Source: Octopus sinensis (taxonomy: Eukaryota). From it: 64,000 nt of DNA. The notes beneath the pieces were generated by a model. The model searched no databases. It had not been told where the DNA came from and saw nothing but the letters and a program-made list of their open reading frames with translations. A program made the position numbers and the translations under genes. Location of the stretch: positions 191,456,001 through 191,520,000 of the forward strand of contig NC_042997.1 of NCBI RefSeq assembly GCF_006345805.1. The letters run 5' to 3'. Below, piece after piece: positions 19,158 through 57,941 of this stretch; positions within the stretch are counted from its first letter, which is position 1, and each line of letters opens with the position of its first letter.

Positions 19158-19361
19158 TCGGAGTAAGCACATAAATGTGAAACAAGGTTGAAAAAAGAGT
19201 ACTCAATACCAGAGGTAGAGTATATGCTTTATTTAAAAGCAGCAGAAATGTAACGAAAGCCATTACTCAGAGTTTCACGTTCCCATTCGTCGGACAGTTT
19301 TGTTCACGTGAAACTCTGAGTAACGGCTTTTGTTACATTTCTGCTGCTTTTAAATAAAGCA
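19158..19361. mobile_element. Asymmetric fold-back element between microsatellites
   Basis: Inverted arms 19225-19280 / 19306-19361 plus one-sided extension. Confidence 0.8.
19260..19297 (-). ncRNA. Hammerhead-like core (CCGACGA variant)
   Basis: Minus strand CTGT-CCGACGA-ATG-GGAA-CGT-GAAA-CTCTGAG-TA-ATGG. Confidence 0.4.
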
Positions 19362-19363
19362 CA

Positions 19364-19443
<80 letters not shown>

Positions 19444-19460
19444 TATATATATATACATAC

Positions 19461-19728
19461 AACTAATGTAGGATAAAATCTTTTTTGAAAAAAAATTTTA
19501 TCAATGGCCTGCATATCAAAAAATACCTTTAAAGGTTAAATTTATAAATAACATATAAAATAAGGGCAAAAGAAAAATTCTAATGCCAAATATGCCAAAA
19601 AAGACAAAATTGTCAATAACCATTATAATTTATGCGTTTCGGCTGCATAAATTATAATGGTTATTGACAATTTTGTCTTTTTCGGCATATTTGGCATTAG
19701 AATTTTTCTTTTGCCCTTATTTTATATG

Positions 19729-19732
<4 letters not shown>
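19461..19732. mobile_element. Asymmetric fold-back element in (TA)n
   Basis: 88-bp arms 19548-19635 / 19645-19732; loop GTTTCGGCT (minus strand GCCGAAAC). Confidence 0.8.
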
Positions 19733-19763
<31 letters not shown>

Positions 19764-20492
19764 CATACACACATATTCATCATATATATTAATCCAAACA
19801 AGTGGAGGAATAGAAGAAATGAAGTTGCAAAACCAGAGAGACTATATCAGAATTATTTCAAAATTCATTATATCTTAAAATATAGGAATGCACTTGGCTG
19901 GTTCCACACAAGATTTTTCGAAAGTGTATAGTGTATGGACTTGTGTTGTAAATTATTTCTATTCTGATCATTATTATAAAAATAGTTTGTTTTTAAAATA
20001 GGAATCCGGCGATATATATAAACATCCTCTAAATCTATACATACCATTAAAAGGCATGATGTTATGGAATTGTCTGAGATAAAATATCTTTATTGATCTG
20101 TGTTAAAAACACAATGTATATCAGAGCGAGATAAATGTCACTGTAGTGACTCGTGAGAATGACTTTCTTGAGACTCATCAATGGCAAGCATTTGTCACCT
20201 GCTTCAACAAAATTTGTACCTTGATATATAGGAAACAGTGAATAAAACATTTACTAGCACTGCTGATGTTTGCCACGCTGTGGAAAAATTTGGTAAACAC
20301 AATGGAAACAGCATTAAATTAAAATAGCCATCTGTGTATCATACTAAATGTATATTTACTGTTAGAAGGCATAATACTGTGTTTGTTTCATATATTTAGC
20401 TTTCTCACAAGCCACTACAGGGTTGTTATTTCATCTCCCTCTGATATCTATCTATCTATCTCTATCTCTCTATCTCTCTATCTATATATATA

Positions 20493-20778
20493 TATATATT
20501 AGAAGAAATGAGGTACTCAGAAATCCAGATGGTTTTATATTTACAGATATTTATTAGTATGTTACATGTTTTTATAAATCATATATCATATATTAGCGCT
20601 TTCGTCCATTCTAGTGGAGTCTTCAAATTGAAGACTCCACTAGAATGGACGAAAGCATATATATATGATTTATAAAGACATGTAACATACTAATAAATAT
20701 CTGTAAATATAAAACCATCCAAATTTCTGAGTACCTCATTTCTTCTAATATATAATACCTGTACATCATCTCCAAACC

Positions 20779-20783
<5 letters not shown>
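20493..20783. mobile_element. Asymmetric fold-back element in (TA)n; partial copy at ~17980-18072
   Basis: ~130-bp arms centred at 20627, extension to 20783. Confidence 0.8.
20592..20628 (-). ncRNA. Hammerhead-like core at the turn of a fold-back element
   Basis: Minus strand TTGAAGA-C-TCCA-ctagaa-TGGA-C-GAAA-GCGC-TA; C3>U variant, stem I truncated. Confidence 0.45.
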
Positions 20784-20855
<72 letters not shown>

Positions 20856-20856
<1 letters not shown>

Positions 20857-21403
20857 AGGTTCAAATGATGAATAGCTTCGCGTAAACCATAGGTTCATTT
20901 TGTTCTCTTACTTTATTATCATCTTATAATCATCTCATAATAATGACTTTTATGACTCGTATTACTACCTCAGTCAATCTAAATGTATATATTTGTCGTT
21001 ACCTGTCATAAATAGCCTTTTTCTATTTGCAATATGCATTTTTGTTGATTTTTTTATATTTTACCCTTACATTTCCACGTGTATTTTATATTTTCTTTTC
21101 GTAACATATTTCTACTATATATATATATTATATATATATATAAGGTTCAAATGATGAATAGCTTCGCGTAAACCATAGGTTCATTTTGTTCTCTTACTTT
21201 ATTATCATCTTATAATCATCTCATAATAATGACTTTTATGACTCGTATTACTACCTCAGTCAATCTAAATGTATATATTTGTCGTTACCTGTCATAAATA
21301 GCCTTTTTCTATTTGCAATATGCATTTTTGTTGATTTTTTTATATTTTACCCTTACATTTCCACGTGTATTTTATATTTTCTTTTCGTAACATATTTCTA
21401 CTA
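20856..21403 (+). repeat. Two direct ~260-bp copies (20856-21117, 21142-21403) separated by (TA)n
   Basis: Near-identical copies; same family as right arm of 57441-57941. Confidence 0.85.
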
Positions 21404-22499
21404 TATATATATATTGTGTTTTCAAATGCAGTACATCCATAAGAGATGTTGTCTTGGATGAATATTCTTCCTAGCTTCTTCAAATGATTAATTAATGATC
21501 GTAATGCTAACATTAACTTCAGTGGAAAGCTCTCTCACTGTCACAGCTGGATTGCTCATTATGTTGACTCCAGTATTTCATTATTGAATTCAAGTTCATC
21601 AGGCTACCTGAAATTGCCAAGTTTGAATTTTTCAAACCTTTTTTTGTTATGTTGTGTCTGGGGAAGAGTCATTTTCTTTTTTGCCTTATTATGTAACACA
21701 CTCACCGGTAAAATTTCCACTTATTTCTTATTTTTATTTTCCTAAAATTATCGTGTCTAGCTTGAAAGTCATAAACACACCGAAGGGAAATAACAATTCG
21801 GTGAGACAAGCTGACTGACAGGTGACGGTCGTTTAGAAAAAGTACGGGCTAAAACTACGTGCCTTCACTAGTCAGTTAAGGTGAGACAGTGTCATGTGAC
21901 AACTTGCTGGGGCTGCATGCTGGAGCCTATGCGGCAGATATTTAAAGGGAAAAATTTGACAAGACAGTCAGTCACCGGCTGACACTCACTGACGATACAT
22001 CGAAGAGGCCAGGGAACAGAAGAAAGAAGACATGCACCCAACACCAGAGCTGAAGACACCTCCGAAAGTAAGGGCCCCGCCACGTCAAAATGGTAGAGGA
22101 GTAGGGGCCAAAACCGAACGTGGTTCCTCCCGATGATGTCTTGAGCTAACTGGATCCTATAAAGGAGCTGTTGTGGTAGCAGACGACGAAACACAGTTGT
22201 AATTCCTCCTTCAATAGTCCTGACTCTGTCTGTTATTTACACTTTTTTTGTTATTTCTTACGTATATACATACATGAATTGCCATCGTTGTCTAATGCCC
22301 ATGTTTTATGCTGGCATGGGTTGGAAGGTTTGACAGGATCTGATGGGATCAAGGACTGCATCACACATCAGTGTCTACTTGGGGGCATGAGGATAGCCTC
22401 TTAAGTCATATTTATTGTAATTATTCATTAATGCTTTGTCTGTTAATTTGCAGAGATTACAAACCATCAATAAAAAAGAAAGAAAACTTGTATTAAATA

Positions 22500-22584
22500 A
22501 TGAAGAACTTCCAAACAACACCAATTCTTGAAAGGAATAATTCAACAGATTCAGACCAATCACATATACTACATTTCCATGCAA
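22500..22584 (+). CDS. Coding exon 1 of putative transmembrane adaptor-like protein (MKNFQTTPILERNNSTDSDQSHILHFHA)
   Basis: Acceptor ttaatttgcAG at 22452-22453; in-frame upstream TAA at 22494; ATG 22500; donor A|GTAAGT at 22585; phase 1 matches next exon; NNS/NST glycosylation sequons. Confidence 0.6.
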
Positions 22585-23644
22585 GTAAGTTCTTAATTAT
22601 TTTAATACATTTCATATATTAGTGTATGTCATCTGGGAGTGTTACCATACTTGCCACGCTTGGCACAGTGGGTTTGTAAGCCCCTTTAGAGAGCTTTTAC
22701 CTCATTGCAGGAATATGTTAGGGCTTGTTCTTTACTGTTGAAACTCACATGACACATGGACACACACACACACACACACACATGAAAATCATCATCAACA
22801 TCATTATCATCATCGTTTAACGTCCGTTTTCCATGCTAGCATGGGTTGGACGGTTCAACTGGGGTCTGGGAAGCCAGAAGTCTGCGCCAGGCCCAGTCTG
22901 ATTTGGCAGTGTTTCTACAGCTGGATGCCCTTCCTAACATGAAAATAAATAAGTAAAAAAGTTGAAAGGTTAAAAATTATATACATACATGCTCACAGTC
23001 CCTCCACCACCACCACCACCACCACCACCACTGGATGGCCACTGACTTTCCTGAATTCCTCTGCTCTTTTGGATGGGTTTTGTTTTCTGTCCTGCAGGGT
23101 GTCTAATAACCACCCTCCTCACCCAACTCATTTGGTGGGGTCACCAGTTTAGTTACCAATGACCCAACCAAGACAAAATACAATATGACAAGATGATCTC
23201 AGCTGCTATCTGGGCCTGCATGATTGTGACTGATCAGAAATAGGCAGTAGTGGAAGGAATCCAGAAAGGGATCCCGCTTTTAGGAGCAACAAAGCCCAGG
23301 TTGAGGTTTAATGCAATGGTTGGAAATTTCTATAGAAAAACAACTAGTAGGGACCTACAAATCTTCTGGTGTGACTTAGTAGTTCGGCAAAACGGCCCAG
23401 TCGAATAAGTACTAGGCTTACAAAGAATTAGTCCTGGGGTCCATTTCATACACTAAAACTCTTTAACTGAAACAAGTAGAATGCTATATTTGTGTAGCCA
23501 ACTTTCCTTTTGTCAATGTTAAGTTTAATTAATAAAGGGAGATAACTCCTTCTGAACCTGAATTATTTCCCTCTTCTCATCTATCGTGTACTCTTTCGCT
23601 TTATAGTCATAATTTCCACCTTCTTATACACATATATATATGAT

Positions 23645-23823
23645 AGATCGGTAGCCACTACACACATTATTTTTCTCTCCTTGTTTTTTTCTGTGTCCCT
23701 TTCTGTAGAAGAGCGTAGGCTCGAAACGTAAAAGACTTTTTCTATTCCTGAGCATTATACTAATACATCTGTTTGTTTTGTACACCACCTGTCTTCGTCT
23801 TTTGTTTTCTTTCGTGAACTCCC
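23645..23823 (+). mobile_element. Solo PLE terminal-repeat-like element with hammerhead-like motif (23699-23734)
   Basis: CTTT-CTGTAGA-A-GAGC-gtag-GCTC-GAAA-CG-TA-AAAG; flanked by (TA)n. Confidence 0.5.
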
Positions 23824-24459
23824 TATATATATATATATATATATATATGTGTATGTATCAGCAATAATAAAATAATTATAATAATAAGGATTATTAATAA
23901 TTTTTTTTTTGCCAAATAAATTATTACTGCTCTTATTCTAACTGAGCCCTGGCCAACTCGAATTACATGGTGGGTCACCTTAATCATAGAAAGTTTTTGG
24001 AGGGCTGCTTGTATGCTGACAGAATTGAAAGCATTTTGCTTTCTCATGCTAGTATTACAATAATGAATGAATGATCATTGATTCAACATGAAATATTATC
24101 GTTGCAAAAACAGTAGCATCTTTCTTTTTAGCTTTCCATTACAATCTTTAATTTTTGATAAAAATTTTTTAATGTTTGTTTAAAGAAACCCATTTCAAGA
24201 AAGTATCAAGCAGGCCGCAAGATAAAAGTCTGCGGGTCACATGCAGCCCACGGGTCTTAGGTTGGCCAGCCGTGTTCTAACACATGTCCATTGTCTGGGA
24301 ATCTTTCGTCACACATCTGTGACCTCTTCAGTGACACTTTTCGTCTTTGTGTGTGCTCTTGCTCCACTTATTTAATTCTGCCCTTCTATGATGCGTATCC
24401 TTATGTGCGCGTGCATTTGCATCCGCGTTTATGTATGTTTGCATGTATGTGTGTGTCAT

Positions 24460-35099: not shown

Positions 35100-35303
35100 T
35101 TTTTTTCTAGTTTCAGCTCAGAGCTGCGGCCATGCTGATGCACCGCCGTTGTAGTGAAGGAGTACAGCAGGGATCACCACCCCCTGCCGGAGCATCGTGG
35201 AGCTTTTAGGTGTTTTCGCTCAATAAACACTCACAACGCCCGGTCTGGGAATCGAAACCGCGATCCTACGACCGCGAGTCTGCTGCCCTAACCACTGGGC
35301 CAT
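35100..35303 (-). mobile_element. SINE family C
   Basis: Same head and body. Confidence 0.8.
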
Positions 35304-35311: not shown

Positions 35312-35684
35312 TATATTAAATATAATAAAGGGTTAATTACAAGTTGCTCAAAACCACATACCGAAAATATTAGAAATAGCAGCCAAATAGATCACTATTT
35401 CTACTACTATTAAAAAAGTCTCCACAAACAAACAGAATTTGTAACCCGTCTATGGCAAAGAGAAAGAAAACAACGAAATCCCAGCCAATTGGATTAGTAG
35501 AAATAGTATTCTATTTGGCTGCTATTTCTAATATTTTTGGTATGCGGTTTTGAGCAACTTGTTGCAATTAACCCTTTATTATAATTAATATAATTCTTAC
35601 CAAATATGGTCATTTCCATACCGAAAAAAATACTAGGTGAAATTTATTAATTTTATCAAATTAATTATATTTCACCCTTTTTGT
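35312..35684. mobile_element. Asymmetric fold-back element in (TA)n
   Basis: Arms ~35312-35405 / 35496-35592, extension to ~35684. Confidence 0.7.
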
Positions 35685-35697
35685 ATATATATATATA

Positions 35698-39118: not shown

Positions 39119-39124
<6 letters not shown>

Positions 39125-39449
39125 CAAAATAAGCAACAAGGATATCCAGAGGTAATGCAGTACGATCGTTTCATGCGACTCCATTTAATTGAACGATGCA
39201 AACATTACATCAATTTAAAATGCAGAGCAATCTTCAGCTGCATAAAAATATAGAATTTAGTTAAATTCGAAGGATTCATTTGTATAGTTTTCTTTTTATC
39301 CAAAATCACAAAGAGGATAAGTAGATAGACAAAAAACATGTTTGGATATCCTTGTTGCTTATTTTGATTATAATCACCCCCATTTTGAATTATATGGATA
39401 ATACCATAATAAATTCTGGTGCCTTTAACTTAAGTACCATATTCAACTA
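39119..39449. mobile_element. Fold-back PLE terminal repeat with hammerhead
   Basis: 30-bp arms 39119-39148 / 39343-39372; follows long (TA)n. Confidence 0.7.
39155..39243 (-). ncRNA. Type I hammerhead ribozyme in fold-back PLE terminal repeat
   Basis: Minus strand ATGCAG-CTGAAGA-long stem II-GAAA-CGATCG-TA-CTGCAT; palindromic stem III, GUA triplet; U.U at base of stem II. Confidence 0.7.
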
Positions 39450-41690
39450 TGTTGATTCAATCTGATAAGACTGGAAATCTGTACAAACTTTATAAAGACT
39501 ATTATTTGGAATTACTTAAAAAAGAAATTCAGAAAAAGTATAAAATTGCTGATAAAAGAATATTTAAGAAAGCCAACATTGAGGCTATGAAAATCATGGA
39601 GTAATATAACCTACAAACGAAGACAGAACCACTTGTTCCTAAGCAACCTCGGTTCATTTTGAAGGATCACAAACCAAATTTTTTTACTAACCCATCATTA
39701 AGGCTTATCTGCCCTTCTAGCTCTGACATCGGTATCCTTAGTAAAAATATACTAGATAAATATATTCCTAATTTAATCAAAACATTAAAACTTAGTTTAT
39801 GGACTAATTCGTTTGAAGTAGTTGACTGGTTGGTTTAGTTCTATTAACAATAAGGTGAGTACTAAGTTTATCCAGTTTGATATTTCCAATTTTTATTCTT
39901 CTATCAATCCAATAGTACTTAATAAGGCACTTTGGCTTGCTCATAACAAAGCTGGTCTCACCCGAGAAGAAATTAATGTTGTGTTGGCAGCCAGAAGATC
40001 TATTATTAAATTTGATGATAAGTTGTGGGTCCGTAAAGACACACCAGATAGTTTCGATACACCAATGGGAAGTTCTGATTCAGCACAGACAGCCGATTTG
40101 GTCTGTATATATATTCTTTTTGAAATGGCTGAAGAGTTCCCTAACATTTATGGAGGTCTATATCGTGATGATTGTTTACTTTACCTAAAAATCGTTTTTG
40201 ATGACGATATGATGAAGGCCAACTTTTTAGATATTACGCTTAATTTACACAGTGACTCTTACCTCCCATATCGTAAACCGTTGACCAATCTTAAGTCCAT
40301 TAGCAAATTTAGTAATCATCCTGGAGCAATTACTAAGAACTTGGTTAAGAATATTTCATTTAGATTATCTAAATTATCTGCTAATGTTGATATTTTCAAT
40401 AATAATGCTGAATTCTATAACTCTGCCTTAATCAAAGCAGGTTATACAGAGACAATTTTCTACATAGATTCTGCTCAGTCTAATTGTAAATTCAATAATG
40501 TAGATAAGATTTCTAGTCGTAAAAGAATTATTGATAACAAACATAACTTACGCACCGATACAAAGCGAATGAAGGCAGATAACCCTTATTTAATCCCCTA
40601 TTATTGATCTATAAGTAAATATAACACCTTCAAAAAGTAAATACGCTATGAATACTAGTAAAAATATTTGGTTAATAATTCCTTACGGGAGACAAATTAA
40701 ATCTAATCTCCCACTGCTGTGTCGTCAAGCTATTGCTAGGAATTTTCCAAACAATTCTAGATATTACTCTATAATCAATTCACATAAGATTAGGATAGGT
40801 TTTTCAAACACAAAAAATCTCTTGCAAATTATCTCTTCTCATAATAACAAACTGTTAAATATTAATACATTTACTAATACTAACATTAATTTAGCTAATA
40901 CCATCCAACCCTCTAGAAATATTAATAACAAGGTTATTGTATCTGAAGTCAATTCCAATAGAATTAAGTTTATGTCAAGTAACTCTAAGATTAAAAATTC
41001 TATATACCAGTGTATAATCAGTACTCGTAATAAAGTACGATTTTACATTGGAAGTACATCGTTAGAGTTATCTAAAAGAATTTCTATCCATTACTCAACA
41101 TTTAGGGATAGAAATAAATGGAATAGTACCGGTGTCAGTAAACTGATTTGGGATTTAAAAGACCACAATGAACAATTTCATTTAGAATGGTTGATTCTCT
41201 CAATTTCGATACCATATGACAAAGGCAAGAAATTCTGTCTTCTCTGCAATTCTGAGCTATTTTTCATTATTTTTTCTAAAAATACTCTAGTAAACACGGT
41301 TATAGAGCGAGCATACAGATGTAAGCATTGGCAAAAACATACATTTAGTGCATATAAGTAGTCTCTATCATTATATATAATTTAAACTTTAATTTCCTTT
41401 ATATTTAACATTCACTATTAATATCCCTACTCTTTCTGTTAGCTACTTATGACGTGATATCATATAACGTTTTTTTTAAACAATATTAATAGCGTTCTGT
41501 CTATCGCTATACAAATCCATCATTTTTTGCTAAAATGTCTTATTGACGAGTTTCGTTTTTTTCACTTTCCTGAGGAGAAGATTGCATTGTTTATACCATT
41601 TATTCTTTTGAATAGTATCAGTGGAATTTTCGAAACATGTGTCGAAAGTAAAAATATTTGATTACACCTGCGTTAACTCCATTCTTTTAT
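39450..41690 (+). mobile_element. Penelope-like element (RT + GIY-YIG endonuclease), degenerate, with 3' hammerhead
   Basis: DKTGNLY, LKDHKPNF, QFDISNFY, MGS, LYRDD, NFLDITL, YRKP, SNHP; IYQC..FYIGST; CLLCNSE..CKH; several stops/frameshifts. Confidence 0.9.
41564..41649 (+). ncRNA. Type I hammerhead ribozyme at PLE 3' end
   Basis: Stem I ACTTTC/GAAAGT, CTGAGGA, stem II GAAGATT..AATTTTC, GAAA, short stem III C-ATGT-G, GUC cleavage triplet. Confidence 0.75.
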
Positions 41691-41714
41691 ACATATATAT
41701 ATATACCTCATGGA

Positions 41715-42322
41715 CTTTCCCATCGTTAAATGATGTATGAGGGTTCGGTAAGAAATTGCCAAACAACCACACAGGATTTGTTTATAGTGATCCAATGTTT
41801 GTGTTCGTGTAAGTTCACACCCTCCATCAAATCGACATTACCTGTACAGGTACACTGTGTGCCACATGTCAGATGACGAAATGATCGCAGAGCAATGTGA
41901 AATGAAGTGCTTTTGCTCAAGAACACAACGCAATGCCCGGTCTGGGAATCAGACCCACGATCTCGCAATCTTGAGTGCAACACCCTAACCACTAAGCCAA
42001 GCACCTTCACACACACACATACCTAACTCACATGATGGACTAGACTATTGGGTGTTGTTATACATCGCTGATCACAATGTACTTTGCATTGTTTTAGCTT
42101 TTGAATGACGCCACCCAACTGGCTAGGTGAGCAGGCTAACATTATCCCTGTTCAGAACACTATTCCATCACATGGTTCCCCATCTACAGCTGAGTGGACT
42201 GGAGCAACATGAAATGAAGTGTTTTGCTCAAGAACACAACACACCACCCAGTCCAGGAATCAAACCCAAGAATACTAGATCGTGAGTGCAACACCCTAAC
42301 CACTAGGCCATGTGCCTTCACA
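41715..42322 (-). mobile_element. Two SINE family C-related copies
   Basis: Heads at ~42010 and ~42322 (GTGAAGG..TGGC.TAGTGGTTAGGG). Confidence 0.75.
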
Positions 42323-43319: not shown

Positions 43320-45376
43320 TTATGTATGTATATAAGAAAATATTTAATCCATAACCAATAAAATGTATTTGGTTGAACTAAGAATTATAGATTAAATATT
43401 TTATTCACTCTCAGACTTATCCTGGAGCTGTTTATTCTAAGTGGCCAGACACAGCTTCTTTTGAACTTGCCAACCCCTGGAATATGTATTTGTTTATTTG
43501 CAGTTAAGGCAAAAACTTTGAAAAAGAAAAACAAGAAATTATACGACTGGGTTAATTGGTTATTAGCAATCACACGTGTCTTAAAATATACACTGAAAGT
43601 CTTCAAAAGTATCAACAGTTTGGCCTGTAGGGAACAGCGATGTCTGATTTTCAACCTCAGTAATTGATTGTGAAGTTTTATGAAACCACCCATATCTCAC
43701 ATTGACGATAAGTATTCGTTTTGTTAAAACCCTTAAACAGAGAGAGGCCAGGTCTCTATAAACCCTCCAGCTATGTAAAGAAGCAATCAGTTGAATCGAA
43801 ACAATCTTCCAATGCAATTACATATGACAAGTTACCAAACCACATCACTATTTCCAATACAGAGATTTGAAAATAAAACAATCTGTTTTTCTTTCAGTGT
43901 TACAAGAAAAAAAAAAATTTTAAAGGAGGGAGAGCAGGGGGAAGGGGGGGGGAGAGAAAAAGCATTAAATCAATCACTTTGAATTATTTCCTAAAATCAA
44001 TAACTTTTCAACTGTTCATTACTCATTACCACGAAAAGCTTCTTACAAGAAAAAAAAGTAAATAAAAACAAAAACAAACAAAAATAAACAGCCACTAATG
44101 AACCTGAAAACTATCCAGTTTTAGTAGACAAGTAAATCTGTGGAAGCCACTCTGATGAGATGCATTATGGGACACTAATCTAAGAGTTAAAAAAACAACA
44201 ACAATAAAACAAAAAAAGGGGTGGGGAATTTAAGACCTTCTCTAGGTCAATCATTTAATGTACAACAGAATTTAACCATACTGCCCAGCTTATCCTTTAA
44301 TCAAACCAAAAGTGTTGTGGTTTAAACTGTGAACACATTCAAACATATTGGAAGCAGCTTTCAAAAATATTTCATCTACAGACAAGTAAAATGACAGAAT
44401 GATTAAATGTCGGAATATTTTATATATCGTACAAAATGTATTTACTAGGTCTGTTCTCTTTCTCCACTTCCAAGTTTAAAAAAAAATTTTTTTTTTTCCT
44501 TTTTAAACTGCTTTTATATCCCCATTTGCTGAATGTGTACGTTTATAAAAAATGGCAGAATTTTGTCACTAATCTCCAGAGAAAAATTAACTTCTAGCAC
44601 CATTCACAGAAAAAGACACTTGCTTTATCCACAGACGGACGTAGGAAACTAAACTCTGATCAGCTTAGAACCAACAAAAATACCACTGATCTGGACATAG
44701 GATTTAACAGACTGGAAATATTTATTTCTGCAATTATTTATTTATACATATTTTTTTTTTTTAATTAGAGCTCCACGTAAAATATCTTTATTTCTCAGAT
44801 TTGGCAATTCATTTTGATTAAAGAATTTTAGGCATGTGAAAAAAGAACCCTCTGACATATACATGTTAATAAATTCATAAGCAGTGAGGAGTTATTAAAA
44901 CACTCTCACCCAAGAGACATCACTGCCATCAATCATATCCGACTGTTTGTACATTACCTCAAGGCAGAATATCATAGGGCATACGCAGCTTTCCAACAAA
45001 GGTGAAAGATGGGGGCTGGGGGAATTTGAAATTTCACCTTTGTAATCATAAACCATTACATGCAGGTTGTAGTTATTTTAATTGCATCTAAATTAACAAG
45101 CTATAAATCACTAGTGAAGGAGACCAAATGATCTGTTCAGACTTTTTTTTTTATGCATAAATACGGTAAAAACCAAATCCGAGAGAAAGCTATCTAAAAT
45201 AACTCAACATTATTAAGTGTTTTCTTTGAAACAGTATGAAATGCAAGCTGCAATTTTTGTTGTAATAACTGAATATAAAATTCAATATTTTTTCCAAACA
45301 TTTTCCATTAGGGAGTATAGCTCCAAACTTACAGGGAAAAATTAGATTTAGTATTAAATCAAATTTCACAGTATAA

Positions 45377-45638
45377 ATATATAAAATATGAATTAGAGAT
45401 AAAACCACTATTAGGCAACTCAAACAGTGATAGACATAAACCAATACATAAATAACAAATAATATAAATATAATTAATATAGTATAAAAAAAATTATTTT
45501 TAATTTTTAAATTTTTATATATATATTATATACGACATTAATTATATTTATATTATTTGTTATTTATGTATTGGTTTATGTCTATCACTGTTTGAGTTGC
45601 CTAATAGTGGTTTTATCTCTAATTCATATTTTATATAT
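45377..45638. repeat. Fold-back element, 102-bp near-perfect arms
   Basis: 45377-45478 / 45537-45638; explains the mirror ORFs 45190..45444(-) and 45571..45780(+). Confidence 0.85.
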
Positions 45639-46438
45639 ATATAATGATATATATATATATGAGAGAGAGAGAGAGATGCAGATAAACAGGTTGTCAAAGA
45701 TTTCAGTGTGTTTAAGCTCAAATCATTTGAGCAACACAATGTGTTTTCTATACAGAAAATCTTTAGTTCTCGCTTTTTGATATATATCGAAATGTGTAGA
45801 TTTTTACATGGATCTAATATGCTATGAATGAGTCAGTTACCCAGTAATAACTATATAAAACAACATTTAAATTAGCTTCCAAGACAACTGATCTAAGCTC
45901 TTTATAAGTGAGCTATATACCAATTTGCAATAATTAAAAATAATTTATAGCAAAAAGAAACAGGCTAACAGCAACAAAATGTATTTTTAATTAATTTTTT
46001 GTTTTATAGCTATTTAATTCAAGAGAGAAACCAAAACCAAATAAAAACAAAACCGAGAGGGAAAATATTAAAAAGTACCAGAATTTAAATCTGACAGTAC
46101 ATTTATATTTATAAATAAAGAACCTCATGAAACTCAAATTGAAACTTTTGAATTATACTGAAAATCTCTTGACTATTTGTACAAACTAAAGTTATTGATC
46201 AAAATTATTTACAAACCAAACAGCTCTAATTGTCAGAAAGAAACCCTAGTAATTAATGAGTAATCTGTTTGAAATAAAGGTTATTACTTATTTTGAGGAC
46301 TGGCTGGAGTAAACCTAAGAATTATGAGTAGATCATAACTCAGACATAAGCAAAAATTATATTATATTCTTACTATGTGCTCAAATTACATACACGAATA
46401 AATATTTTGTAATTATATATATAAAATGGAAAATCTTA

Positions 46439-46630
46439 GATACAGTAGGGTGCTTTTGAAAAAATGAAATAAGAATGACTGACTTTTTGATAATTATTTC
46501 CCATTTAAATGATTAGATGTTTACAAATCGTAATGACAGGTTGTAAACATCTAATCATCAAAGTGGAAAATAATTATCAAAAAAAATCACTCTTAATTGT
46601 TTTTTTTGTTCAAAGGCATGCTACTGTATC
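46439..46630. repeat. Imperfect palindrome (old MITE-like)
   Basis: GATACAGTAG/CTACTGTATC ends; inner ATGATTAGATGTTTACAA/TTGTAAACATCTAATCAT. Confidence 0.6.
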
Positions 46631-46698
46631 AAGGATGTACTGCTTCTCTGAAAATATATATCTGTAAATATAATATGTGACAATTATTCGGTAGTTAT

Positions 46699-46759
46699 GA
46701 TAAAACTCCGAGTTTCGGATGTCAGGGTGGAAATCCACGCTGCCATCTCTTCAGTTATC
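46699..46759 (-). ncRNA. Type I hammerhead ribozyme (left arm of fold-back element)
   Basis: Minus strand GATAA-CTGAAGA-GATG..CATC-C-GAAA-CTCGGAG-TT-TTATC. Confidence 0.65.
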
Positions 46760-46795
46760 TGGCCGTCGGAAAAAATGCATTTTTTCTGATGGGTG

Positions 46796-46856
46796 GATAA
46801 CTGAAGAGATGGTGGCATAGATTTCCACCCCGACATCCAAAACTCGGAGTTTTATC
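46796..46856 (+). ncRNA. Hammerhead copy in right arm with GAAA>AAAA core mutation
   Basis: GATAA-CTGAAGA-GATG..CATCC-AAAA-CTCGGAG-TT-TTATC. Confidence 0.5.
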
Positions 46857-46979
46857 ATGGCTACCGAATAATTGTCGCATATTACATTTACAGATAAATT
46901 CCTCTATTTACATAATATCGAGGTCTCTTTCATTCTTTTGTTGTCTTACCATTTCTAACAATATATATATATATCGATG

Positions 46980-47217: not shown

Positions 47218-47340
47218 CAGGGTGATTCAAAAGTCACCATACATAGGAAAAACATTTTTTTTATAAGAAACAGTTAAATAAAAAACTGTCTTATAAAAAA
47301 ATAAATTGTTCTTATGTATGGCGACTTTTGAATCACCCTA
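47218..47340. mobile_element. Tc1/mariner-type MITE
   Basis: TA|CAGGGTGATTCAAAAGTC ... GACTTTTGAATCACCCT; near-fully palindromic. Confidence 0.8.
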
Positions 47341-49832: not shown

Positions 49833-49870
<38 letters not shown>

Positions 49871-52180: not shown

Positions 52181-53145
52181 TAGTTGAGGTTTATAGAAAC
52201 CCCACTTGGATAAAATCTCTTAGAAGGAAACTACAAAAGAATAATTGATGTTTAGGAATTTGGCAAAGTATTCGGGATCTGGAGGAACTTCTTGAAAGAA
52301 TCACTTTCCAAAGTGGTTTTTCAGTTATACTTTTCAAAGCAACTTGAAGCAGTGAATCAAGTTACAAGACTTTTGGATAATCTGACAGCTGCTTACTTTC
52401 GCAAAGAACAAGAGGCTGGATGTGATTCAGATTTTAAATTCATTAAATCAATAACCAGATGTTTTTGAGAGGAAGTCCTATTTTGCTTGCTAAGGTAAAT
52501 AGGTTAAGAGAGCACTAAGCATATTACAAAATAACCTAAGCAACAAAATTTTGTTGAATGAAAAGGTGGTGGTTAAAACCTTGTTGTATAAAGATTACAT
52601 TGGAACTGAGAGAAATTTCCTGACAATCATAAATGATGTTTGGCTTTATTTTCATTGGAAGGAATAATCTAAAGCCTAGCTCTATAGCTGTAAGGTAAAG
52701 TGGTAGATTTCTAACAACATTGTAAGAAGTTTAGATTTGCCTTTAGCCATCATGCATTGTGATTGACCCTAGTTTGATGACTAAATAAAATACTTTATGA
52801 TTGGGTGGTTAGTAGAAAGAAGGGGTTACAACTAAAAAATTAAAAAATAACAAAATTCCCAACCATGATAGCATGGGAAAATTGAATCTAAAATGTCAGG
52901 AAATTCATGATTTTGTTAAACTGAAGACCAGAAAGCTGGTATAAAGTACAAAAATATTTAGAGAACTACCCTCTATGGGTGTGTGTGTGTGTGTGTATCT
53001 AGTTGTAATAATGAAGTCAAATCAAATAATGATATTTTGAAATCACTTAATATGTTTCAGGTTTGCATAATATATAATAGGAAATGCATCCATTATGTAA
53101 ACCTTCATTTTTATATATTTATATTTTCATATATATATATATATT

Positions 53146-53420
53146 ACCGTGACCGACCAGGCTATCAGATGTTGCTACACATTGCTGGTCGCAATGTGCT
53201 TTGCATTGTTTTAGCCTTCAAATGACACAACCCCGCTGGCTAAGCGAGTAGGCCAACAGAAGAAAGAGTGAAAGAAAGTCGTGGCGAAAGAGTACACCCC
53301 CCCTGCCGGAGCCTTGTTGAGCTTTAGGTGTTTTCGCACAATAAACACTATCAACGCCCGGTCTGGGAATTGAAACCATGATCCTACGACTGCAAGTTCG
53401 CTGGGCCATTGCACCTCCAC
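53146..53420 (-). mobile_element. SINE family C (partial copy also at 57271-57385)
   Basis: Match to 12212-12517. Confidence 0.8.
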
Positions 53421-54768
53421 ATATATGTGTGTGTGTGTATAGCTTTGACCAATCAGATGATTGATTTGATTAGAAATCAAGTGGTTATCAGATGAACTGC
53501 CTACTGAATGCAACAAATTAATATGAAAATATGAGAAAACATGATGAACAAAGAAATGTTGCAAATTGCTAATGGAAGGGGGTCATGATGGAGCTAAATT
53601 AATGAAGATTGAAACAAACCCCCAAACAACCCTTAAAATGTTTAAGCCCCTTCAACACTTGCTTGCACACCTGCCAATAAACAAAAACATAATAAATAGC
53701 AGTATCATATCATCAGGTGATACAACATTTGTATCACTAGTTAATATATATATAACTAGGTTAATCCAGTTAAGATTTCCCTAAAAATACCTAGGAACTG
53801 ATGCTGTAAAAAAATAAAAAAGAAGAAAAATGTCAACACTTTCTCTATCAGAAGCTCATGAAACAAAAATTCTAGCCTGCCTACCAGAGACACAATTGAA
53901 ATTATCACACAAAAATTGACTGAACACAACGACTCTTCGTTACTTTAAAATTGGTTTCCTTGATTAATAACGAAGAAAAAGTAAATGCAATGCATTTATT
54001 AATCACCCTTATAGGAGTTTGGAATATTTACTAATGGACTTTTAAAACAGTAATGATTATTACAACATGGAAAAATCAAACAATGAATAAGAGATAATAA
54101 AAAAAGAAACATGCAGAATCAAATAAACTTTCAACATTGATGACATGTGCAAAAAATATTTAGAAATATAAAACAAAGAAATAACACTTACTTGTGAAGA
54201 GCACTTACTTTTCATTAGAGTGGGGGGGAGGTCTCTATGTGCATGTGTGCGTGCATGTGCATGTGTGTGGTGTATATATATATATATTTTTGCATGGTTT
54301 TGTGCAAATGTATGTGTACGTATGTATTTGTTTATATATCATGCATATAATTAAGCGAAACCAAAGTAGTATTTAGATTGCTTCCAGCTTTGGTAACCCC
54401 AATAATGGTATTCAAATTTGAAGATTTATTTATATTATTTATCCCGTCACATAATTCTACAAGGTCGAATGCATTTCTAAACTTTTCTGGTACAACATGT
54501 TTTTAATCAACGAATTAATTAAAAAATGTAAACGTAACATTACAAATAAAAAAAATATATATATATATATACTTTAAATTCTTTTTCTTTTCTTTTTTTT
54601 AATAAAATCAACAACAAAGGAAAGAAAATGAAATTAACAGAATAGTAATAAAACAATACAGTTAAATATTTGAATAAAATATTGAAAATAAATTCATAAC
54701 GATGTAAAAGATATAAGTAGCATAAAGAAGGGATAGGAGGGGAGATGTAATGGGTAAACACGCTCCAC

Positions 54769-54828
54769 TTATCCTCGCAAACCCAAATCTAAAGGTAAAT
54801 GTATCGGCAGGAAGTATAGTTTGGTCCA
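54769..54828 (-). CDS. Candidate terminal coding exon (WTKLYFLPIHLPLDLGLRG*)
   Basis: Acceptor ctctctctctgtgctAG; phase 0 compatible with both upstream donors; followed by U-rich UTR-like sequence. Confidence 0.4.
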   Translation of the reverse strand, partial: WTKLYFLPIHLPLDLGLRG

Positions 54829-55131
54829 CTAGCACAGAGAGAGAGAGTGTGTCGCTACTACGTTATAGTCCTGGGACACTAAGATGTTGACATCTCAACA
54901 GTTGGCCTCTATTATTATCATTATTATTATTATTATTATTAACATTATAAGAGTAATTATTATTACTCTTAACTGTAGTCTTCTTTTTGTATTTTTAATA
55001 CCAATTTACAAAATTTATATATTAATCACTAAAGTTTTGTGTTAGACATTAAAATCAACAGAAAATATTAAAGGAGTAAGAATTAGTCTTAGGGTTTCTG
55101 TGTAAACTATTACTATTACTATACAAGCAGG

Positions 55132-55186
<55 letters not shown>

Positions 55187-56039
55187 TTTTTAATATATTT
55201 TTTTAAAACTTTTCTCACAGTTTTCCAGCAAGGCATAGCCATACTTACTGATTGTAAGTTATTGAGACATTTCAGAATAGAATTCTAATGTAATCAAAAT
55301 GACAGAGATAACGGTGGTATTCTATTAAAAGCATAAATGACACAAAGAAAATGGCTTTGAGTAACAAGCGTAATGATAATGTGGTGTATCTCTGGAGGAA
55401 GGATCCTGATAGATACTAAAAGGAAAGAACTCTGCAGCTAAATGAGAACCACATGAGAAGAATGGTTTAAAGAAAAACAAATATTAAAAGAAAACTGTGG
55501 CAAGTGTATGTTAAGTCTTGCGGGTGGGTGGCAGCATGGTTAGTAGAGAGAAGCGAAATACCAAGTGGAGGAAAGGAAAGATTAGGTGTAAGGGTGTCAA
55601 AAAAAAAAGTAAAAAGGTGGAAGTTTCATTAGTGAAGAAAGAAAAAATAGTGAATGTGTAACTGAGTAGACAGCCATACTGTCAAAGGACAAGAAGGAAA
55701 ACAACATGACAATGTTTAATGAATAACCGTATGATGATGAATGACAAAATGAAAAGCTTGTTTTAAGCAGACTGATCTCAGAGGAAAGAAAGAAGTAGAG
55801 AAAGTCAGAAAAGACGAGGAGTATTTTACTATTGTATATGGAAATTAACATTTCGGAAGGAGCAAAAATCAAGTTAAGCAAACTGGACCGTATCTTCTTG
55901 ATGTAGATGGTAGTGATGTTGCCAAATGTGATGGAAGGATGGCAAGTGGGGGGTCAGGATGGAGAAGAACTTGAGGGAGCAAAATGTAAAGGAAAACTGC
56001 AATGGAACCACTGACAGTTTCATTTTGTATGAAGGCCCA

Positions 56040-56875
56040 TAGTGACCGAGACATTTGGAGATATGCTGTGCAATATGCTGTGCTTGTGAAGACCTGTCGG
56101 ACCAAGTGAAATTGTGGATAATGCTAGTGCCATCTGACTGGTACATAAAAAGCACTGTTTGAGCATTGAGCCTCAAGGAGGCAGTGAAAAGTGACCAAGA
56201 CCTTTGGCGATATACCATGCTTGTGTAAACCTGTCAAGCCAAGTGAGATCATAGTCATGGCTGATGCCGGTGTCAGGTGAATGATACCTGCGTTGGTGAG
56301 ACGTAAAAAACGCTCACTACACTTTCGGAGTAGTTGGCATTAGAAATGGCATCCAGCTATAGAAGCCTTGCCAAATCAGACCAGAACCCCCCCCCCCCAG
56401 TTTTCAGTCAAACCCCACAACCCATGCCATTAAATGACGATCATAATAATGACAAATTCCAGAAAACTGCTTGGTAAAGAGCAAGTGCTAATTATCTAAC
56501 CTGAAATTGATAAATCTGTTAAGAAATGTGTGTACTGACCAAATAAAGGTAGTGAAATTTCAGGATCAACACCATTTACAGTGAAGTTGTATTAGTCTCT
56601 TTTTATTCTTAAAGCAAGATAATTTTAATAATTTCTTAGTATATGTTCATCATCATCATCATCATCATTGTTTAACGTCCGTTCTCTATGCTAGCATGGG
56701 TTGGACGGTTCGACCGGGGATCTGGGAAGCCAGAAGGCTGCCCCAGGCTCCAGTCTAGAAACATTGCCAGATAAGACCGGAGCATGGTGCAGCCTTCTGG
56801 CTTCCCAGATCCCCAGTCGAACCGTCCAACCCATGCTAGCATGGAGAACGGATGATGATAATGATGATGATGATG
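56040..56875. mobile_element. RTE-like 3' end joined to family D sequence, plus head-to-head family D pair (56648-56875)
   Basis: gaccgagacatttggagatatgctgtg (DRDIWRYAV, RTE C-terminus-like) upstream of family D core; (CAT)n...(GAT)n palindrome. Confidence 0.6.
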
Positions 56876-57379
56876 TTGTTAACTAGAAGTTTGCAGTATT
56901 TTGACCACTCAGAACTTAATAGAAATAGCTGAAATATAGCTACTTGGCGGAAATGTCATTTAATAGCAAACAAAACTATTAAATACACTTTAAATTTCAT
57001 TTTATGAGGAGTTAAGATTTCTGTTACACAACTATAACCTAGTCACCGACACTGCAATTTTGATACCTTGTGAAAAACTTAAAATTTCACAGCTGTGTGT
57101 AATATTAATTAGCTCTTCTACCATGTAGTAACTTTAGTTTCAACTTGGTCTCAGATCAAATCATGTGCTAAACAAGTACAACTCCTTTAGCTATAAAATT
57201 ACACATTACAGAGCATTTACAAAGATGGAAATAATTATACAAACAACACACATACAGATATATATATATATCACCGTGACCGATCAGGCTATCAGATGTT
57301 GCTACACATCGCTGGTCACAATGCGCTTCGCATTATTTTAGCCTTCAAATGACGCCACCCCGCTGGCTAGGCGAGCAGG

Positions 57380-57440
<61 letters not shown>

Positions 57441-57442
<2 letters not shown>

Positions 57443-57937
57443 GTAAAATATGAAAAATCAACGAAAATGCATATTGCAAATAGAAAAAGGCTATTTATGA
57501 TTGGTAACGACAAATATATACATTTAGATTGACTGAGGTAGTAATACGAGTCGTAAAAGTCATTATTATGAGACGATTATAAGATGATAATAAAGTAAGA
57601 GAACAAAACGGACCAATGGTTTACGCAAAGCTATTCATCATTTGAACAACACTGGTTAATACACCTTTTGTATTAACCAGTGTTGTTCAAACGATGAATA
57701 GCTTTGCATAAACCATTGGTTCGTTTTGTTCTCTTACTTTATTATCATCTTATAATCATCTCATAATAATGACTTTTACGACTCGTATTACTACCTCAGT
57801 CAATCTAAATGTATATATTTGTCGTTACCTGTCATAAATAGCCTTTTTCTATTTGCAATATGCATTTTCGTTGATTTTTCATATTTTACCCTTACATTTC
57901 CACGTGTATTTTATATTTTCTTTTCGTAACATATTTC

Positions 57938-57941
<4 letters not shown>
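57441..57941. mobile_element. Asymmetric fold-back element in long (TA)n
   Basis: 223-bp arms 57441-57663 / 57669-57891, 5-nt loop, 50-bp extension. Confidence 0.9.

What the first reader, a model, noticed from the sequence alone, without database searches (positions are those of the whole stretch)
19158..57941. Multiple unrelated hammerhead-linked fold-back mini-elements concentrated in (TA)n tracts
At least eight elements of different sequence (19158, 19461, 20493, 35312, 39119, 45377, 46659, 57441) share one design: inverted arms of 30-223 bp, usually a one-sided unpaired extension, and microsatellite flanks with no ORF. Four carry full hammerhead-type cores, and one has only the GAAAC half in its loop. 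In three (19158, 19461, 20493) the hairpin turn falls at or within the ribozyme motif. Known: PLEs carry minimal type I hammerheads and often an inverted terminal repeat. Inference: these are extreme PLE truncations or a non-autonomous retrozyme-like class, with the fold-back point tied to the ribozyme (self-priming or template switch) and a (TA)n target preference.
Basis: partly seen in the sequence, partly recalled or inferred. Interest (0 to 1): 0.75.

Follow-up and report, generated by a model that had tools for sequence, protein, structure and literature searches.

The report
Fold-back Penelope-like retroelement stubs in (TA)n
The eight hairpin-shaped mini-elements are real copies of eight different repeat families, each with over a thousand candidate copies sitting beside (TA)n tracts; they are most likely head-to-head stubs left by Penelope-like retrotransposons, an insertion style already described, and only two of the eight carry an intact hammerhead-type core, which is predicted but untested as a ribozyme.

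Summary
All eight fold-backs exist at the stated places. Each belongs to a separate family with at least 1345-3133 candidate copies in this 2.7-Gb genome. All share one design: two inverted arms plus a 33-96-nt "tail" on one side only. That held in 29 of 29 further copies of four families. 75 of 118 element ends abut (TA)n, against 6% of control windows.

[quoted passage not shown] An unlisted PLE copy lies at 39822-41692.

Inverted 5'-truncated copies, a one-sided tail and (TA)n targeting are published PLE signatures. In vitro, a PLE protein nicks and extends both target strands from two RT start sites.

The hammerhead claim is only partly right. Rfam finds none. My own descriptor finds three in the window (39119 element, 46659 element, unlisted PLE) against 0.06 expected. 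The 19158 and 20493 elements carry cores with a departure at a conserved position. Four elements have none.

In three fixed-axis families the turn lies 1-23 nt upstream of the core, not at the cleavage site.

Verdict: ordinary PLE biology in an unusually compact, non-autonomous form.

The parts
19159..19365 (-). E1 fold-back. Tail 19159-19221, tail-side arm ~19222-19299, other arm 19306-19365. Hammerhead-like scaffold on the minus strand at 19299-19264, but with C at core position 4.
   Evidence: >=2269 candidates, 84-90% identity over the full length; CCGACGA in 90 of 100 listed of 1230 exact matches.
19461..19745 (-). E2 fold-back. Tail 19461-19536, arms 19537-19635 and 19645-19743. No hammerhead core.
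   Evidence: (>=1542 candidates, 85-93%).
20501..20783 (+). E3 fold-back. Arms 20493/20501-20586 and 20661-20750, tail 20751-20783. Near-core TTGAAGA...CGAAA next to the axis; not a canonical hammerhead.
   Evidence: >=1938 candidates; only 2 genome matches with CTGAAGA; helix I 2 bp; C.C at 10.1/11.1.
35312..35690 (+). E4 asymmetric fold-back. Inverted tail-less copy 35312-35496, direct copy 35495-35592 with tail ~35593-35690. No core.
   Evidence: >=1676 candidates; elsewhere single units match query 184-379 and, overlapping on the other strand, 1-185.
39121..39448 (-). E5 asymmetric fold-back. Inverted tail-less copy 39121-39343 carries a predicted type I hammerhead on the minus strand (core starts at 39237, cut after 39161). 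Direct stub 39343-39372 plus tail 39373-39448.
   Evidence: (>=3133 candidates, 94-97%).
45307..45646 (-). E6 fold-back. Tail ~45307-45376, arms 45369/45377-45494 and 45521-45646, 26-nt spacer. No core.
   Evidence: (>=1729 candidates).
46659..46966 (+). E7 fold-back. Arms 46656-46777 and 46778-46899 (ending at 46893 by the family alignment), tail ~46894-46966. Predicted hammerhead intact on the minus strand of the left arm (core at 46754, cut after 46704). The right-arm copy (core at 46801) has CAAAAC instead of CGAAAC.
   Evidence: (>=3088 candidates, 86-92%).
57441..57940 (+). E8 fold-back. Inverted tail-less arm 57441-57663, direct arm 57669-57892, tail 57893-57940. This is the 3' UTR end of a PLE with RT and GIY-YIG. 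No core found.
   Evidence: (>=1345 candidates).
39822..41692 (+). Unlisted 5'-truncated PLE copy ('PLE-W'). RT-like ORF 39822-40607 (YRDD), GIY-YIG-like ORF 40615-41361. Predicted hammerhead 41564-41649 (core 41570-41576, GUC, cut after 41643). 3' end at 41692 abutting (TA)n.
   Evidence: (>=2683 candidates, 97-99%).
20859..21401 (+). Two further single units of the E8 family (20859-21115 and 21145-21401), starting at the (TA)n tract that also borders E3.
   Evidence: 96.5% identity to the E8 arm plus tail.

Best explanation
These eight fold-backs are copies of separate high-copy repeat families that most likely were inserted by Penelope-like retroelement (PLE) machinery. Shown: each has an arm, an inverted arm and a tail on one side only. 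Shown: they sit beside (TA)n. Shown: one family is continuous with a PLE reading frame. Inferred: a PLE protein (reverse transcriptase plus GIY-YIG nuclease) would nick both strands of a (TA)n tract and prime reverse transcription of a short 3'-terminal RNA module from both nicks. One cDNA would start at the distal start site and keep the tail. The other would start at the proximal site and lack it. The two cDNAs would then be joined head to head, probably by a template jump. Where the template is a short RNA with a fixed 5' end, both cDNAs run off at the same point, giving a symmetric palindrome with a fixed axis (E1, E2, E3, E7). Where copying stops early, the arms are unequal (E4, E5). Most of the families are predicted to be non-autonomous parasites of the genome's autonomous PLEs. 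In four families (E1, E5, E7, PLE-W) the module reads: hammerhead or hammerhead-like motif, then 37-49 nt, then the proximal end, then the tail.
For: (1) Real families. There are 1345-3133 candidates per family, and the scored copies match over the full fold-back plus extension. (2) Exactly one tail in 29 of 29 non-window fold-backs that I read (E1 6, E2 7, E3 7, E7 9) and in all 8 window copies. (3) 75 of 118 ends abut (TA)>=4, against 176 of 2950 control windows. (4) E8 continues upstream into RT, a CX4CXXC linker and GIY-YIG. Pfam gives GIY-YIG E=0.0013, 19.5 bits, below the 22.6 cut-off. Related ORFs lie next to (TA)n in two other loci. (5) Published PLE signatures match. Craig et al. 2021 (PMC8557442, passages) report heavy 5' truncation, an adjacent inverted 5'-truncated copy, a tail at one end only and (TA)n preference. 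Frangieh et al. 2024 (PMC11167929, main text) show a PLE protein cutting AT-rich DNA, extending both strands and starting RT at two internal sites whose interval is the tail. (6) Hammerhead descriptor: 3 hits in the window against a mean of 0.06 in 200 shuffles, with none of 200 reaching 2. Reversed sequence gave 0 hits. (7) Spacing from the predicted cut to the proximal end is 49, 40, 42 and 37 nt in PLE-W, E5, E7 and E1. (8) Junctions look newly made at each insertion. Indels concentrate at the axis (alignments). Arms show no side-specific lineage (same-side identity equals opposite-side identity). Shared minor alleles sit in both arms of a copy more often than in column shuffles: 8/7/6/22 observed against means of 3.2/2.8/1.2/11.9. 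(9) In E4 and E5 the tail-less arm is the longer one (185 vs 98 nt; 223 vs 30 nt). That fits two independent primings better than snap-back. (10) The E8 axis coincides with a 5'-end hot spot: 33 of 100 listed copies join TA-type repeat there (counted by eye).
Against: No ORF-bearing parent was found for E1-E7, so their PLE dependence rests on architecture alone. Protein-family support is weak: Pfam gives only a sub-threshold GIY-YIG hit and no RVT_1 on the fragments. Rfam hammerhead models match nothing. Four of eight elements, including the one with the proven PLE link, have no core in the stretch I examined, although Craig et al. state that canonical hammerheads are universal in C-terminal-nuclease PLEs. 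Tails here are 33-96 nt (about 175-225 nt in PLE-W), against the published 30-40 bp. One-arm-only alleles outnumber both-arm alleles (84 vs 43), so copying of whole palindromes is not excluded. No empty orthologous site was seen, and no contig bridged an element. The (TA)n could therefore be partly made by the elements rather than targeted. Two-ended priming by itself does not explain why exactly one arm always keeps the tail.
Confidence: 0.72

Rival explanations
1. PLE-mediated, but the fold-back arises by snap-back. A single target-primed cDNA reaches the RNA 5' end, folds on itself and self-primes. The returning strand then pairs with the (TA)n on the other side of the break at the first TA-rich patch, so it lacks the tail.
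For: Near-zero spacers occur in E7 (0 nt), E8 (5 nt) and E2 (9 nt). The rule of one tail per fold-back held in 29 of 29 copies. By eye, the arm/tail boundary is TA-rich in 6 of 8 families. Both-arm sharing of alleles is in excess.
Against: In E4 and E5 the tail-less arm is longer than the tail-bearing arm, which simple snap-back cannot give. In E8 the few extra upstream bases at the turn belong to the tail-less arm. In vitro, a PLE protein extends both strands (PMC11167929).
Confidence: 0.2
2. They are MITE- or Foldback-type DNA transposons that use TA target sites, so (TA)n tracts are simply rich in targets.
For: They have palindromic structure, small size, no ORF, high copy number and TA-rich flanks. 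A genuine MITE-like element with terminal inverted repeats reaching both ends lies in the window at about 47218-47338.
Against: The outer ends are not inverted repeats of each other, because of the one-sided tail. E8 is continuous with an RT/GIY-YIG ORF. E4, E5 and E8 occur elsewhere as single arms or 5'-truncated series with one constant end. Axis sequences differ from copy to copy.
Confidence: 0.06
3. Each family is propagated as a whole palindrome from hairpin master copies (by RNA or by DNA). The hairpins could be hairpin-RNA or miRNA-like genes rather than by-products of integration.
For: Fixed axis and fixed outer ends in E1, E2, E3 and E7. Within-copy arm identity is only slightly above between-copy identity (0.92/0.916/0.957/0.886 against 0.90/0.91/0.94/0.87). 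One-arm-only alleles are the majority. Contigs from a run guessed to be RNA hold pieces of E1-E3.
Against: There is no arm-specific lineage. Both-arm alleles exceed every column shuffle in E1, E3 and E7 and equal the maximum in E2. Indels pile up at the axis. All Rfam miRNA matches are far below gathering scores.
Confidence: 0.1
4. They are assembly artefacts, or repair-generated palindromes at fragile (TA)n tracts, with no mobile element involved.
For: (TA)n tracts are hard to assemble and break-prone (general knowledge). No short-read contig bridged an element.
Against: Over a thousand candidate copies per family, and the copies read share the same ends across many contigs. Contigs from other runs hold the arms at very high depth and contain an opposite-strand joint at 19249/19304.
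Confidence: 0.02

Closest known systems
Penelope-like element insertions (Neptune/Naiad-type targeting of (TA)n; Craig, Yushenova, Rodriguez, Arkhipova 2021, PMC8557442)
   Same: Heavy 5' truncation, an adjacent inverted 5'-truncated copy that creates inverted repeats, an extension ('tail') at one end only, and insertion in (TA)n. For E8, also a C-terminal GIY-YIG nuclease preceded by a CX2-5CxxC-type linker.
   Different: Seven of the eight have no ORF-bearing parent in what I fetched and are only 145-640 nt per unit. Four have a fixed axis in every copy seen. Tails are 33-96 nt rather than 30-40 bp. No hammerhead core was found in E8.
Poseidon PLE of Anolis (PAc) in vitro (Frangieh et al. 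2024, PMC11167929)
   Same: AT-rich cleavage, both target strands nicked and extended, two RT start sites whose interval is the tail, and a hammerhead a short way upstream of the start sites.
   Different: In PAc the cut site lies 85-92 nt from the RT starts, against 37-49 nt to the proximal end here. Initiation in PAc shows no homology to the target, whereas most arm/tail boundaries here are TA-rich. Nothing here was tested biochemically.
Non-LTR retrozymes (Cervera and de la Pena 2020, PMC7229834; Li, Clavereau, Pollet 2026, bioRxiv 10.64898/2026.07.22.740005)
   Same: Small non-autonomous repeats with type I hammerheads, proposed to derive from PLE pseudo-LTRs. Helix III of 2 bp with a palindromic loop, as in E5. 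A U.U mismatch at the base of helix II is reported for one axolotl motif and is also seen in E5.
   Different: Retrozymes are head-to-tail tandem arrays that give circular RNAs. The copies seen here are dispersed and head-to-head. Half have no core. 'Inverted' occurs 0 times in the first paper's text and only in a reference of the second.
PLE minimal hammerheads (Cervera and de la Pena 2014, PMC4209133)
   Same: Type I topology, a larger-than-usual helix II, a short palindromic helix III (ACGAUCGU in E5, ACAUGU in PLE-W), and location near the element's 3' module.
   Different: The helix II segment is 31-58 nt here, far longer than the 7-8 bp described. E7 has a bulge on the 3' side of helix II and a non-palindromic helix III. 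None reaches any Rfam hammerhead model.
MITEs with TA target sites, and L1 twin priming (both recalled, not looked up)
   Same: Small hairpin-forming repeats in TA-rich DNA (MITEs). Inverted segments produced by priming from both target strands (twin priming).
   Different: The element ends are not inverted repeats of each other. Both arms start from the same 3' module instead of from different parts of the RNA.

Membership tests
Penelope-like element (PLE) insertion | Single ORF with telomerase-like RT plus GIY-YIG endonuclease | tested here: inconclusive
   For the E8 family, upstream ORFs carry RT-like motifs, a CX4CXXC linker and a GIY...YIG...R..H motif. Pfam GIY-YIG scores E=0.0013, below the cut-off. 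PLE-W ORFs are collinear with a 725-aa database protein (E=6e-23 and 4e-15). No ORF was found for E1-E7.
Penelope-like element (PLE) insertion | 5'-truncated copies with an adjacent inverted 5'-truncated copy (complex tandem/inverted structure) | tested here: met
   Met by all eight window elements and by fold-backs at other loci.
Penelope-like element (PLE) insertion | 'Tail' extension present at one end only | tested here: met
   Met in 8 of 8 window copies and 29 of 29 other fold-backs read. Lengths are 33-96 nt, longer than the published 30-40 bp.
Penelope-like element (PLE) insertion | AT-rich or (TA)n insertion sites | tested here: met
   75 of 118 ends against 176 of 2950 control windows. 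Whether the tract was targeted or made by the element could not be separated.
Penelope-like element (PLE) insertion | Hammerhead motif in the pseudo-LTR / 3' module | tested here: inconclusive
   Met by my descriptor for E5, E7 and PLE-W. E1 and E3 have near-cores. No core in E2, E4, E6 or E8.
Hammerhead ribozyme, type I | Conserved core CUGANGA ... GAAA ... U-H | tested here: inconclusive
   Met in E5, E7 (one arm) and PLE-W. Not met in E1 (C at position 4 in 90 of 100 listed copies), E3 (U at position 3) or the other four.
Hammerhead ribozyme, type I | Helices I, II and III around the core | tested here: met
   For the three descriptor hits, helix I is 6/5/6 bp, helix II has at least 3/4/7 contiguous pairs and helix III is 3 bp. 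The PLE-W centroid fold shows helices I and II. Fold z-scores are not significant (-0.6 to -1.7).
Hammerhead ribozyme, type I | Match to curated covariance models (Rfam hammerhead families) | tested here: not met
   No hammerhead family at gathering score or at E<=10, nor at E<=0.1 in nine other loci with descriptor hits.
Hammerhead ribozyme, type I | Self-cleavage | not testable with these tools
   Needs in vitro transcription and cleavage assays, monomer and dimer.
MITE (DNA transposon derivative) | Terminal inverted repeats at both outer ends, plus a target-site duplication | tested here: not met
   The outer ends differ because of the one-sided tail. A TA duplication cannot be read inside (TA)n.
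Non-LTR retrozyme | Head-to-tail tandem repeats, each with a type I hammerhead | tested here: not met
   No head-to-tail array was seen among the copies read (6-11 loci per family; at most 40 candidates per family were scored). The E5 and E7 copies are dispersed and head to head. A wider survey was not possible.

The most novel reading that the evidence does not exclude
This genome holds a distinct class of obligate fold-back, 150-300-nt parasites of Penelope-like elements. Their unit is exactly the ribozyme-to-RT-start module: hammerhead or its relic, about 40 nt, the proximal start, the tail, the distal start. The palindrome axis marks the 5' end of a short template RNA that begins at the 5' edge of the hammerhead. 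Every integration builds a fresh inverted dimer by priming from both strands of a symmetric (TA)n target. The families would then be a natural map of the minimal cis-requirements of PLE retrotransposition, and living evidence for two-ended target-primed reverse transcription.
Probability: 0.3. Interest if true: 0.65.

Novelty: new variant of a known kind. Interest (0 to 1): 0.45.

Why it matters
How PLEs integrate is still poorly understood. Tails, inverted copies and microsatellite bias have only one in vitro study behind them. Here eight or more unrelated families, each with over a thousand candidate copies, repeat the same minimal layout. That layout gives many natural replicates of the integration product. 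It suggests what the shortest mobilisable RNA looks like. It also offers genomic support for priming from both target strands. For annotation, these hairpins would otherwise be mislabelled as MITEs or miRNA-like hairpins, as the sub-threshold Rfam miRNA matches show.

Tried and rejected
- Rfam gave no hammerhead family, only sub-threshold miRNA-like hits caused by palindromes and microsatellites. I ran it on the window at gathering score and at E<=10. I also ran it on the eight elements at E<=10 and on nine other loci at E<=0.1.
- A first, stricter scan that required a closed helix II missed E5 and E7. I replaced it with the descriptor.
- Pfam on ten ORFs gave only a sub-threshold GIY-YIG hit. 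A second Pfam scan was no better.
- The search for homologous proteins with the nuclease ORF against longer proteins gave none. With the RT ORF it gave 2 hits.
- ESM Atlas gave leads only: clusters carrying PF26215, RVT_1 or GIY-YIG in a minority of members.
- Parents of E1-E7 were not found. Local tblastn with the PLE ORFs showed only unrelated PLE copies beside E7 and E4 loci.
- A genome search for E3 with a canonical first core base gave 2 matches with a 2-bp helix I. I therefore reject E3 as a hammerhead.
- Thermodynamic folding of the three candidates gave z-scores of -0.6, -1.2 and -1.7, which are not significant.
- Sequencing runs: no RNA holder was listed. Contigs of four runs cover the arms at very high depth but none bridges an element, and no empty site was seen.
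- A second read-laying job, meant to map fold-back and truncation points on the PLE-W 3' module, did not complete five times because the machine was busy. The distribution of breakpoints against the cleavage site therefore remains unmeasured.
- The search of earlier findings held nothing for this genome.
- Covariation in E7 helix II was inspected by eye only. I judged it uninformative because the changes are CpG transitions.
- Repbase and Dfam were not available, so I could not check whether these families are already catalogued.

Full report
**Observation**

The window is AT-rich eukaryotic DNA (GC 0.28-0.46). It comes from a 2.72-Gb genome. Inverted arms are present at all eight stated places (sequence read). 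Arm lengths run from 30 to 229 nt and complementarity from 87 to 100%.

Local blastn found no cross-family similarity at E<1e-6, so the eight are indeed unrelated in sequence. There are more fold-backs than eight:
- two further single units of the 57441 family, at 20859-21115 and 21145-21401;
- fragments of the 20493 and 39119 families, at 17986-18073 and 12838-12934;
- other palindromes of different types.

**They are repeat families, not one-off palindromes**

Each element was searched in its own genome. Every one has many candidates, and only 40 per search were scored, so these are lower bounds:

| Element | Candidates |
|---|---|
| E1 (19158) | >=2269 |
| E2 (19461) | >=1542 |
| E3 (20493) | >=1938 |
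| E4 (35312) | >=1676 |
| E5 (39119) | >=3133 |
| E6 (45377) | >=1729 |
| E7 (46659) | >=3088 |
| E8 (57441) | >=1345 |

For E1, E2, E3 and E7 the scored copies match over the whole fold-back plus the extension, at 84-93% identity. For E4, E5, E6 and E8 many copies elsewhere are single arms or longer versions. The window copies of these four are therefore head-to-head pairs of a unit that also occurs alone.

This rules out an assembly artefact or a local repair product. Contigs from independent runs also hold the arms at very high depth. They contain an opposite-strand joint at 19249/19304. No contig bridged a whole element.

**One design**

I read aligned copies. Every family has one constant outer end that carries an extra stretch, the "tail". 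The inverted partner arm stops short of it.

| Element | Tail length (nt) |
|---|---|
| E1 | about 63-68 |
| E2 | 76 |
| E3 | 33 |
| E4 | about 96 |
| E5 | 76 |
| E6 | about 70 |
| E7 | about 71 |
| E8 | 48 |

Exactly one tail per fold-back held in all 8 window copies. It also held in 29 of 29 other copies that I read (E1 6, E2 7, E3 7, E7 9).

Because of the tail, the two outer ends are not inverted repeats of each other. This fails the defining test for a MITE. A true MITE-like element, whose inverted repeats reach both ends, lies at about 47218-47338 and serves as a contrast.

By eye, the arm/tail boundary is TA-rich in 6 of 8 families.

75 of 118 element ends in other loci abut (TA)>=4, against 176 of 2950 control 30-nt windows.

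**Link to Penelope-like elements**

In three loci the E8 arm continues upstream. Locus L006 shows three reading-frame pieces:
- RT-like motifs;
- a CX4CXXC linker;
- a GIY...YIG...R..H motif.

Pfam gives GIY-YIG at E=0.0013, 19.5 bits, which is below its cut-off of 22.6. L012 shows the same nuclease region folded back on itself. Related ORFs (43-63% identity) end at (TA)n in two other loci.

The window itself holds an unlisted 5'-truncated copy of another family, PLE-W, at 39822-41692. It has:
- an RT-like ORF with YRDD;
- a GIY-YIG-like ORF;
- a 3' end abutting (TA)n.

Both ORFs are collinear with one 725-aa database protein (E=6e-23; E=4e-15). That family is young: 97-99% identity, >=2683 candidates. 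It has two kinds of 3' end, short and about 175-225 nt longer.

Protein-family support stays weak throughout. The Atlas results are leads only.

**What is already published**

- Craig et al. 2021 (PMC8557442; passages seen) describe PLE insertions as heavily 5'-truncated. They often have an adjacent inverted 5'-truncated copy that forms inverted repeats. They have a 30-40-bp tail at one end only, and Naiad/Neptune types prefer (TA)n.
- Frangieh et al. 2024 (PMC11167929; abstract and whole main text read) show in vitro that a PLE protein cuts AT-rich DNA and nicks and extends both strands. It starts reverse transcription at two internal sites, and the interval between them corresponds to the tail. 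Hammerhead mutants did not affect insertion.

The design seen here is that signature.

**Hammerheads**

Rfam finds none. A strict CUGANGA occurs only in E5 and E7.

My descriptor required helix I of at least 4 bp, CUGANGA, helix II of at least 3 bp, GAAA, helix III ending in U, and then H. It gives three hits in the window:
- E5, minus strand, 39237-39161;
- E7, minus strand, 46754-46704;
- PLE-W, plus strand, 41570-41643.

Controls:
- 200 shuffles gave a mean of 0.06 hits, and none reached 2.
- The reversed window gave 0 hits.
- In 234 kb of other loci there were 34 hits, against 0 in the reversed sequence. These include ten further distinct motifs. Five of those ten have an AC-NNNN-GU helix III with a palindromic loop. 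Cervera and de la Pena 2014 report that trait for metazoan type I motifs (passages).

Features of the three window candidates:
- PLE-W has a 6-bp helix I, a GUC cut site and a palindromic ACAUGU.
- E5 has a 6-bp helix I and a palindromic ACGAUCGU, but a U.U pair at the base of helix II.
- E7 has a bulge in helix II and a non-palindromic helix III. Its tail-side copy in the window has lost G12.
- All three have a helix II segment of 31-58 nt, which probably explains the Rfam misses.

The other elements:
- E1 has the full scaffold but C at core position 4 in 90 of 100 listed copies, out of 1230 exact genome matches. It is predicted to be inactive.
- E3 has U at position 3, a C.C pair at 10.1/11.1 and a 2-bp helix I. 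Its 'core' varies between copies. I do not count it as a hammerhead.
- The E2 'GAAAC' is a variant of a variable palindrome centre.
- E4, E6 and E8 have no core.

Activity is untested everywhere.

**Regular spacing**

From the predicted cut site to the proximal (tail-less) end I count 49 nt in PLE-W, 40 in E5, 42 in E7 and 37 in E1. Four unrelated sequences share the same layout, which supports a common functional module.

**The axis**

In the fixed-axis families the turn lies about 11 nt (E1), 1-6 nt (E3) and 23 nt (E7) upstream of core position 3. That is the 5' edge of the motif, never the cleavage site.

In the window's E1 the shorter arm ends inside the motif.

The E8 axis has no ribozyme, yet it coincides with a 5'-end hot spot. 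Of 100 listed exact matches, 33 join TA-type repeat there, 61 continue as the longer element and 6 do neither (counted by eye). A fixed axis therefore looks like the 5' end of a short template or a strong stop. It is not shown to be a ribozyme effect.

**How the fold-back forms (inference)**

- The arms show no side-specific lineage. Same-side and opposite-side identities are equal.
- Indels pile up at the axis.
- Shared minor alleles occur in both arms of a copy more often than in column shuffles. Observed counts were 8/7/6/22, against means of 3.2/2.8/1.2/11.9 and maxima of 7/7/5/18. One-arm-only cases are still the majority (84 vs 43).
- In E4 and E5 the tail-less arm is the longer one (185 vs 98 nt; 223 vs 30 nt).

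I therefore favour priming from both nicked strands of the symmetric (TA)n target, followed by a template jump that joins the two cDNAs. Snap-back self-priming is the main rival. Neither was tested.

**Comparison and novelty**

This is PLE biology with known hallmarks. What I did not find in the papers searched (passages) is families of 145-300-nt non-autonomous units that exist essentially only as head-to-head dimers with one tail. About half of them carry a hammerhead or its relic. Retrozymes, the known non-autonomous PLE derivatives, are described as head-to-tail arrays. Repbase and Dfam could not be consulted, so prior cataloguing cannot be excluded.

**Verdict**

- The hammerhead emphasis is overstated.
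- The finding is a compact variant of a known kind, and of moderate interest.

Noticed in passing
window 39822-41692 (+): An unlisted 5'-truncated Penelope-like element copy with RT-like and GIY-YIG-like ORFs. It carries the best hammerhead candidate of the window (41564-41649, GUC cut after 41643). Its family is young (97-99% identity, >=2683 candidates) and has two alternative 3' ends.
   Followed up: partly
window 20859-21115 and 21145-21401: Two direct single units of the 57441 family, separated by a short (TA)n. They start at the same (TA)n tract that borders the 20493 element. Several families have therefore landed in the same microsatellite.
   Followed up: partly
window 14748-14867 and about 56665-56860: A GC-rich palindromic family flanked by (ATG/CAT)n rather than (TA)n. 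Similar ends appear in the flanks of several fetched loci (for example L049, L091). This may be a second microsatellite-associated fold-back class.
   Followed up: no
window about 47218-47338: A MITE-like element whose inverted repeats reach both outer ends, flanked by TA. It is a useful contrast to the one-tailed fold-backs.
   Followed up: no
window 35215-35300 and 41925-42000: tRNA-like SINE-type sequences (box A/B-like stretches, judged by eye) next to the fold-backs. An inverted pair of another SINE-like repeat lies at 14990-15209 / 15420-15633.
   Followed up: no
window 46435-46633: A further ~200-nt imperfect palindrome (78% complementary) just left of the 46659 element.
   Followed up: no
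loci L023, L031, L032, L035, L040, L058, L059, L081, L088: Ten further distinct hammerhead-descriptor hits lie in the flanks of unrelated loci. Five have palindromic helix III loops. The genome seems rich in type I hammerhead-like motifs, though Rfam reports none of them at E<=0.1.
   Followed up: partly
window 25453-25424 (-): CTGATGA ... GAAA with a 7-bp helix II (mostly wobble pairs). It failed the full descriptor and is probably chance.
   Followed up: no
window 9042-9141: An assembly gap of 100 N, far from all the elements discussed.
   Followed up: no
locus L053 1877-2760 and locus L061 2000-3006: Two other PLE families with a C-terminal GIY-YIG ORF. Their 3' ends abut the same (TA)n tracts as copies of the 46659 and 35312 families.
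   Followed up: partly
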